Under the pieces are notes generated by a model. It was not told where the DNA came from, searched no databases, and saw only the letters and a program-made list of their open reading frames with translations. The position numbers and the translations under genes were made by a program. A stretch of DNA of 64,000 bases, from positions 46,748,001-46,812,000 of the forward strand of contig OZ024748.1 in the NCBI GenBank assembly GCA_964016885.1. The letters run 5' to 3'. Source of the DNA: Eledone cirrhosa. Lineage: Eukaryota. Positions 1 through 64,000 of the stretch are shown here, piece by piece. The first letter of the stretch is position 1. Each line of letters opens with the position of its first letter.

Positions 1-180
1 AAGGCCTTGTCAGCTTTATCTCCCCCTGTTTGCTGAAATTAATGTAAGTGAGTCTGTCACTACTCTAAAACAATAGCATAAGGTCTTCAAAATGCTTTAA
101 ATTAAGCATAAAGTGTATTGCAAAATACACTATATATACATTCATATACATATGGCTATTTCAGAACACCAATTCTAATT
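1..180 (+). mobile_element. Diverged partial copy of the 317-bp HHR repeat family at 55284-55996; the window start cuts through HHR stem III
   Basis: 1-165 is a diverged reverse complement of 55290-55454 (aaggccttgtc...tctccccctgtttgctga...gtcactactctaaaacaatagcata); followed by (TA)n. Confidence 0.8.
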
Positions 181-530
181 TATAAATATATATATATATA
201 TAAATATATATAAATATATTTAAATATATAAATATATATATATATATATATATAAATATATAAATGCATATATATATAAATAATATATATATAAATAAAT
301 ATAAATATAAATAAATATAAATATATATATATATAATATATATATATTTATAATATAATATAATATATATATATATATATATATATATATATTAGAAAGT
401 GAGGTTTATTTTTTTACAAAATGAAAAATACCCGAGGTGCCCTACATGAGTGAAAGTATAAAGAAAAAATGATGAAATCGAAATTGCAACTGGAGTCTTA
501 TTTAAAAAAAATATATATATTTATTTGGTT

Positions 531-566
531 CTTTACCGGTTTCGCACTTCTTCTGCTTTTCATAAG
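531..566 (-). ncRNA. Degenerate hammerhead-like motif
   Basis: Minus strand reads ctt-ATGAAAA-gca gaagaag tgc-GAAA-ccgg-TA-aag; stems II/III intact with palindromic stem III, core mutated, stem I only 3 bp. Confidence 0.3.
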
Positions 567-2904
567 TAGAGTTGAGATGCAGGGTCTGTGGTTTTTCTCA
601 CATTTGATTGGTCTCTGAATGTTACTTGTTTTATACAGAAAAAAAGTGGCTCGCGATGCCAGGTCTTTAGAGAAGTAATTTGATTGGTTGGTCAATAATT
701 ATCATAAATTTCGCGCCAGTATATACAAACCAGCTGCATACAGCCAAAATTCCCTCACCGGTTCCGGCCTCAAATTGACAATAACCGGGCACTCATACCG
801 ACGTTAAAATATTGTTCTCAAAATATATAATTTCAAAATCTCATAGATTCGATATTATGTGGGACATTTATGTGAGGTAAAGCCTTTACCGCGAAAAATG
901 CAGTAGTAAATATAGAGTAATGTAAATGCTAAATGGATAAGGGTATTCCTGGCAGTGGGATGCTGAGCCATATGCATGTTAAGATCTCGTTTAGTCTGTT
1001 CTATTGATCAACAAGATGGAACACACACCATTGAATTATATTTCATATATGTCAGAAAATTACCTCAGCATGAAATTAAAATTAAACTACAATAAACAAA
1101 ACACATATCTCAAACACAAACCCTAAATTACAAATCTAAAACCACTTGTTGATGGAGAAATCGATAGATCTTGGGTGAAAACGATTAACACTTATTAGTT
1201 ATCTCTCGTTATGTTTTAATTTTTAATCCTGTTCTAGTCAGTCTTGTCTTCTTTCATCTTCCTTGGATCGATACTATAACTAATAATCAAAAACTGTGTT
1301 GATTTAATCGATCAAGCCATGCCGCAATATTTGTGGTGCATTATGTCAATGATAAAAATCAATATTTTTAAACTTTTAAATATTTAATATAAATTTGTCA
1401 GGAAATCATCGAATTTTTGTTGTTGTTAGTGTTGCTGCTTAGACCTTGATCACACATGGTCGAAGAAAACTATGATTAAAGCTATTCCAACCGTGACAAT
1501 CTTGTAATTTTTCGAATAGAGTGTACATAGAGCTATTTTATTTAAGTGGTAACATGTTATCTGTTTTTTTTTTTTTTATATATATTTATTTAAGGACAGT
1601 TGATTGTGATTTGTGAGGTTCTTACTGTTATTTCTAGCTATTTACACAACTGAGGAGAGGTCGTGTGTCGTTTGACAGAAAGTCGAAGAGAAATGACTCA
1701 TACGGTTTTTTAATTGCTTGCCAAAATTCCTGATGTGGAATCGTGTGTTGAAACGGATATTATTTCACATTTGTCGAGGCGTGGTGGCGACGTTCATTAC
1801 AAAACACACGCACTAGTATTACTCACTTCCAGTTATTTAGATTATTAATTAATTAATCAATTCATAAATGCATTTTTTCAAAGTTCTGAGAGATAAACAG
1901 GAAGCATGAAATGAATTTTGATAAAGACGTGGTGGAGCGATATATAGCCATGGATTAATCAGATAATGTGACGAAAAAAAGTTTAGTAAACCAATTAATC
2001 ATTTTAATAATTAACTAATTATGTGAGTGATTAATAATATCGAATAAAATCAACCAGTGCGTGTTTAATATATTAAGAATATGACACTCCCGAAGAACCA
2101 CAATAATGACTTTTACAATTTATCTTTCAGGACTGCTAAGTCTAGTGGAAAGAAGAGGAGTTATCCTGTAAGTTGATACCATGATCACGTATTTGTGGTA
2201 GAGAGAATATCTAAACTGCCACCCATAATCTTGATAGTGGTGGTAAACTGGGCGACTGATTAGGTCAACCACCCTAGATTTCAGGACACAAAAGATCCGA
2301 AGCAAATACTATTCTAACAATGTCACTAACTCAGAGCACGCGTCTGGTAATCTCTTATATCAATCCTGTAAGACTGAATGGCAGGTCTCACGTCCATGAA
2401 ATTTGAAATCAAAACAGAGGGAGCCAGAAGCAAATATTATTCTATCAATGTCACTAACTCACAGCTCGGTCTGGTAATCTTTTTGAATGGCAGGTCTGAC
2501 TTCCATAAAATTTGAAATCTAAGTAGAGGGATCGAGAGGAAAGTCCGTAATATGTTTTATCTAACCGGAAAGGTTCAAAGGTACCTCTGACGTAGATAAT
2601 ATTTGAAATCAGAGATCAGAAAGCCAGATGGAAGTCTGCAAGTCTCCTTAGTCTACGCTGCAACGATTCGGCTAATTCGTCGTCTTTTTGTAATGCGTAA
2701 TTACAATTGTTTAGCAAGATTTAAATTATATACTTTCTGATGTTTTCTTGATTAGGCGTTTGATGTTGAGATTTGTTTCAAAAATCTGTGACGTTGGTAT
2801 ACATATATATATATATATATTTAGGTTCTCTCTTGCTTTGTTAAATGCTTCTTTGATTCTTTTATAATCATTTTGTTGAATGCGTATCCCGCAGTGTCTA
2901 TGTT

Positions 2905-3365
2905 GGTGATTGTTGCGTTTTTGAATGTTATAAAATATAGACTTGCTGATTCTATGTAATGTAGTGTAGTGATTGTTGGCTTGTTGACTGTTATAAAATA
3001 TAGTCTTACTGATTCTATGTAATGTAGTGTAGTGATTGTTGGATTGTTGACTGTTATAAAATATAGTCTTACTGATTCTATGTAATGTAGTGTAGTGATT
3101 GTTGGATTGTTGACTGTTATAAAATATAGTCTTACTGATTCTATGTAATGTAGTGTAGTGATTGTTGCGTTGTTGACTGTTATAAAATATAGTCTTACTG
3201 ATTCTATGTAATGTAGTGTAGTGATTGATGGATTGTTGACTGTTATAAAATATAGTCTTACTGATTCTATGTAATGTAGTGATTGTTGGATTGTTGACTG
3301 TTATAAAATATAGTCTTACTGATTCGATATAGTGTGGTGCTGGTGATTGTTGCGTTGTTGGCTGT
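2905..3365. repeat. Minisatellite, 63-bp unit, about 7 copies
   Basis: agtgattgttggattgttgactgttataaaatatagtcttactgattctatgtaatgtagtgt recurs at 3031, 3094 and onward. Confidence 0.95.
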
Positions 3366-3694
3366 TATGTAGTGCTTGGGATTCTTCTGTTGAATATATA
3401 CTATATACTGGCGTGTTTATCCTGGAAATTGTCAAGTTGTTGACTTATGTAAGGTAGTGTCGGTAATTTTGGTGTATTAGGTCTTGTGGTGCTGTTAAAA
3501 ATATGTACTGCAGTGTCTATGTAGAAGAGTATGTTGTTAAGTGAATTATTCTGTAGGCCATATGTTGATGATTGTGGTGTTGGTGAATGGAATACAGTGT
3601 CTATATATGTGGCTGTGGTGTTGTTGTCTGTGAGGACTGCAACAGAACTGTCTATGTAGGTGATAGTTGTGTTGTAAAATGTATTGTACATCAG

Positions 3695-62859: not shown

Positions 62860-62933
62860 GCTGTGATATATATTTCAATGACGACACTGGCCACACTGTT
62901 CTGTGTGCGAGTGTTGTGACATAATCAGACAGC
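62860..62933 (-). ncRNA. Type I HHR with one core substitution (CTGATTA)
   Basis: gctgt-CTGATTA-long stem II (acaacact/agtgtcgt)-GAA-atatatat-C-acagc. Confidence 0.6.
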
Positions 62934-63046
62934 TTGTTACATAATAAGGTTATGTTTCCGAGGTAATCCAAGTTGAATCGACATGGGAACGGACTATATA
63001 TATATATAATATAAGATCAAAAGATGGTTAAAGGAGTTCCATGTAA

Positions 63047-63113
63047 TTTTATTATGCGCATTTCAAAAACAAACATCATCATGCAATAATATTTGTGTTT
63101 TCATCAGATAAAA
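63047..63113 (-). ncRNA. Type I HHR (left arm)
   Basis: Mirror copy of 63238-63304. Confidence 0.78.
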
Positions 63114-63237
63114 CAGGAGAACATGATATGAAGGCTAAAAAACACTTGTGGATAGTGCAGTTTTAAATCAACATATATGTTGATTTAAAACTGCACTATC
63201 CACAAGTGTTTTTTAGCCTTCATATCATGTTCTCCTG

Positions 63238-63304
63238 TTTTATCTGATGAAAACACAAATATTATTGCATGATGATGTTTGTTTTTGAAATGCGCATAAT
63301 AAAA
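63238..63304 (+). ncRNA. Type I HHR
   Basis: ttttat-CTGATGA-aaacacaaatattatt...gatgatgtttgttttt-GAA-atgcgcat-A-ataaaa; palindromic stem III, AUA site, cleavage after 63298. Confidence 0.78.
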
Positions 63305-64000
63305 TTACATGGAACTCCTTTAACCATCTCTTGATCTTATATTATGTATACTCCAGTCCTACAAACTGTAGAGTGCTTCTTATCCGATATCTGCATTGCT
63401 TTATTGTACTACAATAAAACTCAGCTCCTACATATATATATACGTACATGTGTCTATGCATCTTCTTATGTATGTGTGACTGTGTATTTTCATATTTCAG
63501 TATTAGAGAACATGTGAGAGTAATTCTTTGATACAAAACTGTTCAAAGAGTGGATTATACTTTATGAGGAAATATAGAAATAAAAACCTTTAGAACAGAA
63601 TATATCGTTCAGATTTGAACCTAGATTTAAATCATTCGCAAAACTTTCTATTTCTCGTGAGTGTCTCTACCGAAATAATGGTATCGCTTGTCTTCCCCCA
63701 CGGTCAAAAATTATTCCAATATTAGATTTTATTGCATTACTATTTACCAATACAATCGATCTCTTTTTCCCACGGATTCTTGACTGCTGTTTTAATATAT
63801 ACCTACCTCTGGGTTAGTTTAGCCGTCAGTCAGGTTTTATCAAATTTTATCTAGCAATTGTATATCATCATTGCCCCTACGCTATTTTGTATATAACTAT
63901 ATTTGTCTTGGTCCACATATATTGTAACCTTTAGTCTATAATGTTTATTGCATTAAGAGTGCAGGCCTTTGTGGCTAATGAAGAAATTATTATTAACAAT

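What the first reader, a model, noticed from the sequence alone, without database searches (positions are those of the whole stretch)
1..63345. Dense, highly diverse population of hammerhead-ribozyme elements embedded in (TA)n microsatellites
Seen: about 25-30 type I HHR folds (stem I - CUGANGA or variant - stem II - GAAA - stem III - NUH - stem I') in about 15 families with no shared primary sequence. They sit in short non-coding islands that end at (TA)n, and occur as tandem, inverted or fold-back copies. Established: Penelope-like element (PLE) pseudo-LTRs and metazoan non-LTR retrozymes carry minimal type I HHRs and form tandem and inverted arrangements. Inference: this genome hosts a large radiation of non-autonomous, ribozyme-processed retroelements associated with TA repeats (about one HHR per 2-3 kb here), mobilised in trans by PLE RT/GIY-YIG proteins. 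I do not know whether these families are already described.
Basis: partly seen in the sequence, partly recalled or inferred. Interest (0 to 1): 0.9.

Follow-up and report, generated by a model that had tools for sequence, protein, structure and literature searches.

The report
Penelope-element hammerheads flooding TA repeats
The window holds about two dozen hammerhead ribozyme folds beside TA repeats; some are the cut-off 3' ends of protein-coding Penelope-like retrotransposons of the same genome and others are 0.3-0.6 kb non-coding repeat units (retrozymes) that likely borrow those proteins, a known kind of system that here reaches an estimated half a million copies per genome.

Summary
Observation confirmed. 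My descriptor finds 22 complete type I hammerhead folds plus 7 near-complete ones in 16 families; 20 pass the strict cut, against a mean of 0.3 in 40 local shuffles. Stems and the tertiary 3-8 core pair covary between subfamilies.

Six families are 5'-truncated 3' ends (pseudo-LTRs) of protein-coding Penelope-like elements in this genome: five Hydra-clade, one Neptune-type. One has many unbroken 713-codon frames. Six families are closed non-coding units of about 317-593 nt, dispersed, permuted and head-to-tail: non-LTR retrozymes, likely moved by the Penelope proteins (inferred). Five are unassigned.

The density is genome-wide: 75 folds in 400 kb sampled, about 5.5 x 10^5 per 3.0 Gb (3.3-8.4 x 10^5), against 126,247 published for axolotl by another method. 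Hydra elements with hammerheads and (TA)n insertion are already described, one from an octopus.

New details: the scale, and two abundant coding families whose sampled copies mostly carry off-consensus cores (CAGAAGA, CUGAGAA). Cleavage and expression are untested. No earlier scan note covers this genome; one notes a similar ribozyme-less repeat elsewhere.

The parts
393..720 (-). Family A: solo pseudo-LTR of a Neptune-type PLE; hammerhead decayed here (core AUGAAAA; UUGAAAA in other copies)
   Evidence: 87% to both repeats flanking a 938-aa RT+GIY-YIG frame in L044; follows the same ORF family in 9 loci
1..171 (+). Family K fragment; decayed hammerhead spans the window start
   Evidence: 91% to the 317-nt unit; neighbour L305 holds the 5' half
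12095..12663 (+). Family J: non-coding unit of about 470-510 nt with an inverted 5' piece (12095-12180); hammerhead 12323-12400, predicted cut after 12392
   Evidence: 2597 candidates, best long matches 74-90%; tail sequence recurs upstream of the unit in several of 12 loci
12666..12847 (-). Family D: fold-back of two 3' half-hammerheads, end of a Hydra-clade PLE; further pieces at 24746-24785, 33124-33177, 38758-39390 (3' UTR) and a diverged one at 62520-62575
   Evidence: Hydra-type ORF ends about 1.2 kb upstream in at least 8 loci
12886..13658 (+). Family I: non-coding unit of about 420-530 nt with an internal (TA)n; hammerheads 12993-13035 (-), 13363-13405 (+), 13535-13577 (+); palindromic stem III. 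Fragments at 38511-38708 and 39388-39563
   Evidence: tandem spacings 462-531 nt, about 420 in the L351 array; no consistent ORF upstream in 25 loci
15722..16201 (+). Family F: inverted pair of Hydra-clade pseudo-LTR ends; hammerheads 15772-15837 (-) and 15995-16060 (+); related copy 32775-32886 (hammerhead 32790-32850)
   Evidence: follows a Hydra ORF end in L296; precedes the same ORF's 5' part in L299
52601..53148 (+). Family B: 3' UTR end of the most abundant Hydra-clade PLE; hammerhead 53078-53128 with core CAGAAGA, about 25 nt before (TA)n. Other pieces: 16201-16325, 33860-34077, 34125-34273 (hammerhead 34148-34198 -), 34269-34414, 52520-52574, 58955-59114
   Evidence: 30 of 30 ORF loci carry this sequence downstream at 90-95%; 86,011 first-look candidates for the ORF query
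24785..24918 (+). Family N: hammerhead 24818-24895 with an inverted 5' half; unassigned
25009..25399 (+). Family O: hammerhead 25095-25217 with long stem II; unassigned (a 73% relative follows a Hydra-like ORF fragment in L057)
27918..28901 (.). Family M: divergent inverted pair (27918-28014 -, 28645-28901 +), core CCGAAGA (U4C); unassigned
   Evidence: 5 of 6 family cores CCGAAGA
31349..31933 (+). Family H: non-coding 593-nt unit as a fold-back; hammerhead 31765-31862, core UUGAUAA (U3-A8)
   Evidence: period 592-593; no consistent ORF in 20 loci
32946..33086 (-). Family E: pseudo-LTR end of a Hydra-clade PLE subfamily; hammerhead 33028-33078; decayed piece near 37040-37140
   Evidence: about 82% to repeats on both sides of a 651-aa Hydra frame in L293; same ORF in L302 and L303
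51277..52483 (-). Family G: non-coding 521-nt unit, two head-to-tail copies plus an inverted 5' copy; hammerheads 51447-51528 (-), 51967-52048 (-), 52342-52423 (+)
   Evidence: period 516-521 in most pairs; ends at unit position about 410 or 521; no consistent ORF in 20 loci; stem II covaries
55284..55997 (-). Family K: non-coding 317-nt unit, 2.2 head-to-tail copies; hammerheads 55747-55807 and about 55419-55484, core UUGAUAA
   Evidence: period 317; relatives switch U3-A8 to C3-G8
60221..60368 (-). Family L: old non-coding unit; hammerhead 60288-60340 with G at the cleavage position in this copy (C in relatives)
   Evidence: relatives 71-81% identical; 0 of 18 with a PLE end upstream
62575..62770 (+). 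Family Q: hammerhead 62580-62635, core CUGUUGA in this copy; unassigned
62809..62994 (-). Family R: hammerhead 62860-62933, core CUGAUUA here, canonical in two relatives; unassigned
63009..63350 (+). Family C: near-perfect fold-back of a Hydra-clade pseudo-LTR end; hammerheads 63046-63114 (-) and 63237-63305 (+)
   Evidence: follows a Hydra ORF end by about 670 nt in L158; inverted ORF pieces in L164 and L171

Best explanation
The islands are insertions of two sorts, 5'-truncated 3' ends of protein-coding Penelope-like elements and closed 0.3-0.6 kb non-coding units (non-LTR retrozymes), both likely written into (TA)n tracts by Penelope-type target-primed reverse transcription, the non-coding units likely using the coding elements' proteins. 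Shown by sequence: coding partners for six families; closed, permuted, head-to-tail units for six; fixed 3' ends a short way past the predicted cut, often two per family, at AT-rich spots; variable or inverted 5' ends; selection on the hammerhead fold. Inferred: the GIY-YIG nuclease nicks (TA)n; reverse transcription starts inside the RNA at one of two 'tail' sites and copies back through the hammerhead; early stops or strand switches give the short islands and fold-backs. Inferred for the non-coding units: tandem transcripts self-cleave, probably as dimers given the palindromic stem III, are ligated into unit-length circles, and are copied more than once round, giving 1.x-3.x head-to-tail copies.
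For: Enrichment over shuffles. Compensatory changes in 8 of 13 pairs in family K, including the 3-8 tertiary pair, and 4 of 12 in family G, with 0 of 500 shuffles reaching the covariation score. With positions 3 and 8 left free, 37 of 39 well-supported clusters pair them (31 C-G, 6 U-A). ORF linkage: B 30 of 30 loci, A, C (42), D (53, 94), E and F (58, 95). Hydra motifs RWR, DKT, CxCx5C, CxxC..E, CxH in B and E; Neptune-type Cx2-5CxxC linker in A, as defined in PMC8557442 section 11. Unit periods 317, 516-521, 592-593, 462-531. 66 of 75 sampled folds have (TA)5 within 250 nt downstream against 21% for random positions; downstream tract nearer than upstream, p=1.5e-5. Two 3' ends per family match the two internal start sites measured for an anole PLE (PMC11167929, text parts 1-2).
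Against: No cleavage, RNA or circle data for any family. The non-coding units show no similarity to the six coding families sampled, so the helper is not identified. Hammerhead mutants did not affect insertion by the anole PLE in vitro (PMC11167929), and only 1 of 9 Xenopus retrozyme dimers cleaved (bioRxiv 10.64898/2026.07.22.740005, part 3). B and D copies mostly carry off-consensus cores. Loci had 1.5-kb flanks, and family E's ORF lay about 2.8-3.0 kb away, so a distant ORF could be missed for J and L, where closure of the unit is less well shown. The links for C and F rest on 1-3 loci. The 3' end measure (first TA run) can fall inside the element, as in A, I and K. For most folds the hammerhead shape is 2-9 kcal/mol above the monomer's minimum-energy fold.
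Confidence: 0.82

Rival explanations
1. The elements move by Penelope-type reverse transcription of uncut read-through RNA; the hammerheads are kept for another step (5' end trimming, expression control) or are relics, and no RNA circle is needed.
For: Hammerhead mutants did not change insertion in vitro and no reads ended at the cut site for the anole PLE (PMC11167929, part 2). The young, abundant family B reads CAGAAGA in 45 of 56 pattern matches (the rest are mutated, truncated or unrelated), and family D CUGAGAA in 20 of 24 family matches.
Against: The six non-coding families keep canonical or compensated cores and covarying stems. Unit-length circles are shown for coral, mussel and axolotl retrozymes (PMC7229834, passages).
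Confidence: 0.3
2. The non-coding units are leftovers of extinct coding PLEs whose tandem copies arose by DNA-level duplication at TA tracts, not by their own transposition.
For: The perfect 172-nt duplication at 13340-13684 includes its TA tract. L351 holds a long array of family I. The 2026 preprint discusses unequal crossover (part 3).
Against: Copies 96-99% identical lie on many contigs as 1.x units with variable starts, fixed ends and 5' inversions. No ORF family precedes them consistently.
Confidence: 0.1
3. The non-coding units are SINE-like passengers of the ordinary LINEs in the window (R4/Dong-like at 45407-48656 and 19679-20902, CR1-like at 39902-41755; labels recalled from motifs), not of PLEs.
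For: These LINE frames are in the window. No unit resembles a sampled PLE end.
Against: The units share the anatomy of the coding PLEs here: hammerhead near the 3' end, two alternative ends, TA junctions, inverted 5' copies. The abundant ordinary SINE in the window (33650-33830) gave no hammerhead.
Confidence: 0.06
4. The folds are chance matches in AT-rich, repeat-rich DNA.
For: Two TA-run artefacts scored in the window (9784, 15509) and a 27-32 nt satellite scored elsewhere.
Against: 20 against 0.3 in shuffles; covariation; position at PLE ends.
Confidence: 0.01

Closest known systems
Hydra-clade Penelope-like elements (Craig et al. 2021, PMC8557442; includes Hydra-1_Obim from Octopus bimaculoides)
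   Same: Single ORF of about 650-710 aa with RWK-like, DKT, CxCx5C, CxxC and CxH motifs; type I hammerhead near the 3' end, often with an extra base on each side of stem II; insertion into (TA)n; inverted 5' copies (section 11; supplement files S1 and S2, part 2 read).
   Different: Five families here, none with the hammerhead listed for Hydra-1_Obim; longer 3' UTRs (0.7-3 kb); very high copy number; all Hydra cores in file S2 read CUGANGA, whereas B reads CAGAAGA and D CUGAGAA or UUGAGAA.
Neptune-clade PLEs (PMC8557442, passages)
   Same: RT then Cx2-5CxxC linker then C-terminal GIY-YIG; pseudo-LTR on both sides (L044).
   Different: U3-A8 core; clade assigned by motif only, no tree built.
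Metazoan non-LTR retrozymes (Cervera & de la Pena 2020, PMC7229834; Li, Clavereau & Pollet 2026, bioRxiv 10.64898/2026.07.22.740005)
   Same: Non-coding head-to-tail units with one type I hammerhead each, low GC, living beside coding PLEs.
   Different: Units up to 593 nt (170-400 in the 2020 paper, 51-972 in the preprint); mostly dispersed 1-3 unit insertions in (TA)n; no similarity to the sampled PLE ends, unlike 24 of 57 Xenopus families; RNA circles not tested; neither paper's parts that I read cover cephalopods.
Minimal PLE hammerheads (Cervera & de la Pena 2014, PMC4209133, parts 1-2 read)
   Same: Many unrelated consensus families per genome, mostly single motifs from truncated PLEs, opposite-strand pairs 100-700 bp apart, U3-A8 core variant, palindromic stem III.
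   Different: Counts there are thousands per genome (about 2,000-9,000); here an estimated several hundred thousand, by a different descriptor.

Membership tests
Type I hammerhead ribozyme | Three stems around CUGANGA / GAA / UH core, open stem I | tested here: met
   variants in B, D, M depart at position 4 or 3-8
Type I hammerhead ribozyme | Covarying stems and 3-8 tertiary pair | tested here: met
   unfiltered homologs
Type I hammerhead ribozyme | Reaches an Rfam hammerhead gathering score | tested here: not met
   0 matches of any family
Type I hammerhead ribozyme | Self-cleavage | not testable with these tools
   needs in vitro assay
Hydra-clade PLE (B, C, D, E, F) | RT plus C-terminal nuclease with RWK, DKT, CxCx5C, CxxC, CxH; no CCHH | tested here: met
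   all five motifs in B and E (RWR for RWK); C shows the C-terminal ones; D has CxxC and CxH but CxCx5F in L225; F only by 37-49% similarity to B
Hydra-clade PLE (B, C, D, E, F) | Hammerhead near 3' end and insertion into (TA)n | tested here: met
   27 of 30 B loci score a fold downstream of the ORF
Hydra-clade PLE (B, C, D, E, F) | Placement in an RT tree with reference Hydra elements | not tested
   only a by-eye match to Hydra-1_Obim in the supplement
Neptune-type PLE (A) | RT, Cx2-5CxxC linker, GIY-YIG, flanking pseudo-LTRs | tested here: met
   tree not built
Non-LTR retrozyme (G, H, I, J, K, L) | Non-coding tandem unit with one type I hammerhead | tested here: met
   closure weaker for J and L
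Non-LTR retrozyme (G, H, I, J, K, L) | Expressed as unit-length linear and circular RNA | not testable with these tools
   no RNA data in hand
Non-LTR retrozyme (G, H, I, J, K, L) | Derived from or related to a PLE pseudo-LTR | tested here: inconclusive
   no BLAST similarity to the six coding families sampled; the genome holds many more PLE families

The most novel reading that the evidence does not exclude
This is the most hammerhead-rich genome on record (about half a million folds, over 60 sequence clusters in 1.5 Mb of targeted loci), and it shows a split in what the ribozyme is for: coding Penelope families keep spreading after losing a working core (CAGAAGA, CUGAGAA), while the non-coding units must keep one to make unit-length circles; one unit even carries its own (TA)n and so seeds new targets, making these elements a driver of the genome's TA load.
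Probability: 0.3. Interest if true: 0.72.

Novelty: new member of a known kind. Interest (0 to 1): 0.48.

Why it matters
The role of the hammerhead in Penelope elements is open: it is nearly universal, yet was dispensable for insertion in the one in vitro system (PMC11167929). This genome offers young coding families with unbroken frames, some with canonical and some with off-consensus cores, beside young non-coding units of fixed length. That set makes the question directly testable, along with the untested claim that PLE proteins move retrozymes. The estimated count is about four times the axolotl figure (126,247; PMC7229834), though by a different method. Repeat annotation without a structure search would likely file these islands as unknown repeats or SINEs.

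Tried and rejected
Rfam: nothing at gathering score; E-value list swamped by miRNA models. The repeat finder was swamped by TA runs. Chance and satellite artefacts were filtered: two TA-run hits in the window, and in the first 200 kb sample seven satellite hits removed before the 75 count (one TA-run-like hit, core AUGAAUA, remains in the 75). Two candidates (1650+, 59919-) did not fold as hammerheads and were dropped. No PLE reading frame lies inside the window itself (tblastn). Sequencing runs: no RNA holder listed; contigs of two runs of unknown kind from one sample say nothing on expression. Homolog search of the family B protein gave 347 hits, best 56%; of the 120 listed none has an informative name. 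Chance neighbours of PLE ends (mixed ORF families, mixed spacing) were not counted as links. Families M, N, O, P, Q, R had 1-6 copies in hand and stay unassigned. Lunse et al. 2016/17 on PLE hammerhead variants is not held, so U4A may be described there. Dfam and Repbase were not available. Not-in-print searches: 'octopus'+'hammerhead ribozyme', 'cephalopod'+'retrozyme', 'hammerhead'+'U4A'+'cleavage' (0 papers); 'ribozyme' occurs 0 times in the main text of the O. vulgaris repeat annotation (PMC13282606; its supplements not seen). bioRxiv supplements are closed.
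Full report
1. Setting. The window is 30% GC with 14.8% of bases in (TA)n runs. It is G000:C8:46748001-46812000 in a 3.0-Gb genome of 1796 contigs. I take the host to be an octopus-like animal from composition and repeat content; this is recalled, not tested, and no conclusion depends on it.

2. The observation. Rfam found nothing at gathering score. A strict descriptor found 6 folds against 0-1 in shuffles. 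A scored descriptor that allows stem mismatches, stem II up to 130 nt and core variants found 22 complete folds at score >=7 after removing TA-rich artefacts; at score >=8, 20 against a mean of 0.325 (maximum 2) in 40 block-wise dinucleotide shuffles. Seven more are near-complete or decayed and about nine are 3' halves. Self-BLAST shows tandem, inverted and fold-back copies. Sixteen families have a core in the window; D is present as 3' halves and 3' UTR only, and P (32218-32590) only as sequence past the cut.

3. Selection on the fold. With core positions 3 and 8 left free, 544 folds in 332 sequences (1.51 Mb, targeted and partly overlapping) formed 62 clusters. Of the 39 with at least two copies or score >=13, 31 have C3-G8 and 6 U3-A8; one is C-A (family D) and one C-U (the window's own decayed copy, counted through overlapping loci); 23 of 39 have a palindromic stem III. 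In family K, 8 sequences give changes on both sides at 8 of 13 pairs, including U3-A8 to C3-G8, with 99% of cells paired and 0 of 500 shuffles reaching the covariation score; family G, 5 sequences, 4 of 12 pairs. These rows had passed my descriptor, which favours pairing. The unfiltered list has 11 K homologs: one is decayed by deletion, and the other ten pair 3 with 8 (7 U-A, 3 C-G); of 7 G homologs one has a broken 3-8 pair. The tool warns that related sequences can beat shuffles without structure; the slid controls gave 0-2 such pairs.

4. Coding partners. A GIY-YIG search gave 10,594 candidates. L044 holds a 938-aa frame with RVT_1 (just under cut-off) and GIY-YIG, flanked on both sides by window 393-720 at 87%: family A is a pseudo-LTR, Neptune-type by its linker. 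A second protein type gave 86,011 first-look candidates (a loose count that includes other families); the 130 scored are 96-100% identical and many have 713-codon open frames. All 30 loci taken carry window 52601-53148 downstream at 90-95%, and 27 score the CAGAAGA fold: family B. Its motifs match the Hydra clade (PMC8557442 section 11). The same test tied C (L158, with inverted ORF pieces in L164 and L171), D (at least 8 loci, about 1.2 kb), E (L293 with repeats on both sides of a 651-aa frame, L302, L303) and F (L296, L299) to other Hydra-type frames. The window copies at 33028 and 32790 are 82-85% to the E and F references, so their link is by relatedness.

5. Non-coding units. G, H, K and I recur head-to-tail with periods of 516-521 (two shorter), 592-593, 317 and 462-531 nt. 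Copies are 96-99% identical, dispersed, begin anywhere in the unit, often with an inverted piece, and end at set places. In G, 11 of 20 loci end near unit position 410 and 9 reach 521. PLE ends found upstream of these families are of mixed families and spacings (G 2 of 31, H 5 of 41, I 3 of 82, J 2 of 12, K 7 of 59, L 0 of 18), which I read as chance neighbours. Family I carries its own (TA)n inside the unit; of 54 copies that reach the unit's end, 37 run on into the next unit and 17 do not. No unit resembles the six coding families. Of the 22 complete folds, 8 are coding-type ends, 10 non-coding units, 4 unassigned.

6. Genome-wide. Forty 10-kb stretches at round coordinates that I chose across the large contigs gave 75 folds (16 from one tandem array) against 0-5, mean 1.4, in 10 shuffles: about 5.5 x 10^5 per genome (bootstrap 3.3-8.4 x 10^5; about 4.3 x 10^5 without the array). 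66 of 75 have (TA)5 within 250 nt downstream against 21% of random positions, and fold count per stretch tracks the number of TA tracts (Spearman 0.56, p=1.5e-4). The window is about 1.7 times denser than average.

7. Mechanism. Shown: the anatomy above. Inferred from PLE biochemistry (PMC11167929, parts 1-2 of 4 read): nicking of AT-rich DNA and reverse transcription from two internal sites, which explains two 3' ends per family (C 42 and 132 nt past the cut, D about 15 and 96, E about 18 and 87, F 48 and 138, H about 75 and 240, measured as the first TA run, which can lie inside an element). Early stops give solo islands; strand switching gives fold-backs. Inferred from retrozyme work (PMC7229834, passages): cleavage of tandem RNA, ligation, and copying round the circle. 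Against a needed role for cleavage: the anole result, 1 of 9 Xenopus dimers cleaving (preprint, parts 1-3 of 5 read), and the cores of B (CAGAAGA in 45 of 56 pattern matches) and D (CUGAGAA in 20 of 24 family matches, UUGAGAA in 2; sample biased to the subfamily nearest the window copy). U3-A8 is a known active variant, and U4C is known as weak in vitro but sufficient in a viroid (PMC3088659, passages); I found no paper naming U4A, but the main paper on PLE variants is not held.

8. What is known. Cervera and de la Pena 2014 describe many hammerhead families per genome, single motifs from truncated PLEs, opposite-strand pairs and the U3-A8 core. Craig et al. 2021 describe Hydra elements with hammerheads and (TA)n insertion, and list one from Octopus bimaculoides (supplement part 2 of 59 read, plus search passages). 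The 2020 paper and the 2026 preprint define retrozymes and argue for PLE origin. So the kind is known; these families, their number and the odd cores I did not find in print.

9. Verdict. Real feature; new members of known kinds (Hydra and Neptune-type PLE ends, non-LTR retrozymes); interest 0.48. The boldest open reading (record density, ribozyme dispensable for coding but not for non-coding families, TA self-seeding) has probability about 0.3.

Noticed in passing
window 45076-48656 (-) and 19679-20902 (-): Broken non-LTR retrotransposon frames with RT (RVT_1) and a C-terminal zinc knuckle plus nuclease-like region; R4/Dong-like by recalled motifs.
   Followed up: partly
window 39902-41755 (+) and 53328-53806 (-): CR1-like LINE frames (label recalled); the first has RVT_1, the second is a short 3' end beside TA.
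   Followed up: partly
window 19225-19406, 33650-33830, 35231-35414: A 180-nt SINE-like repeat, 32 hits in 200 kb sampled; no hammerhead.
   Followed up: partly
window 2906-6450: Three adjacent minisatellites with periods 63, 46 and 43 nt.
   Followed up: no
L351 (G000:C28:110000001-110010000): Array of about 420-nt family I units filling the whole 10 kb, 16 folds scored.
   Followed up: partly
L299:3200-5927: 2.1-kb internally deleted family F element: ORF 5' part joined to the 3' UTR between two pseudo-LTRs; a possible step from coding element to non-coding unit.
   Followed up: partly
L044:1367-2302 and L099:7659-8290: A 27-32 nt satellite that mimics a UUGAAAA hammerhead in the descriptor; treated as a false positive.
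   Followed up: no
L344:4366-4449: A second, unrelated fold with core CAGAAGA, single copy.
   Followed up: no
L046, L047, L050, L057: Another Neptune-type PLE (636-aa frame) with a compact CUGAAGA hammerhead about 380 nt past its stop; not in the window.
   Followed up: partly
window 24746-24918, 16201, 62575: Islands of different families abut directly (D with N, F with B, D-like with Q), suggesting insertion into earlier copies or template switching between RNAs.
   Followed up: no
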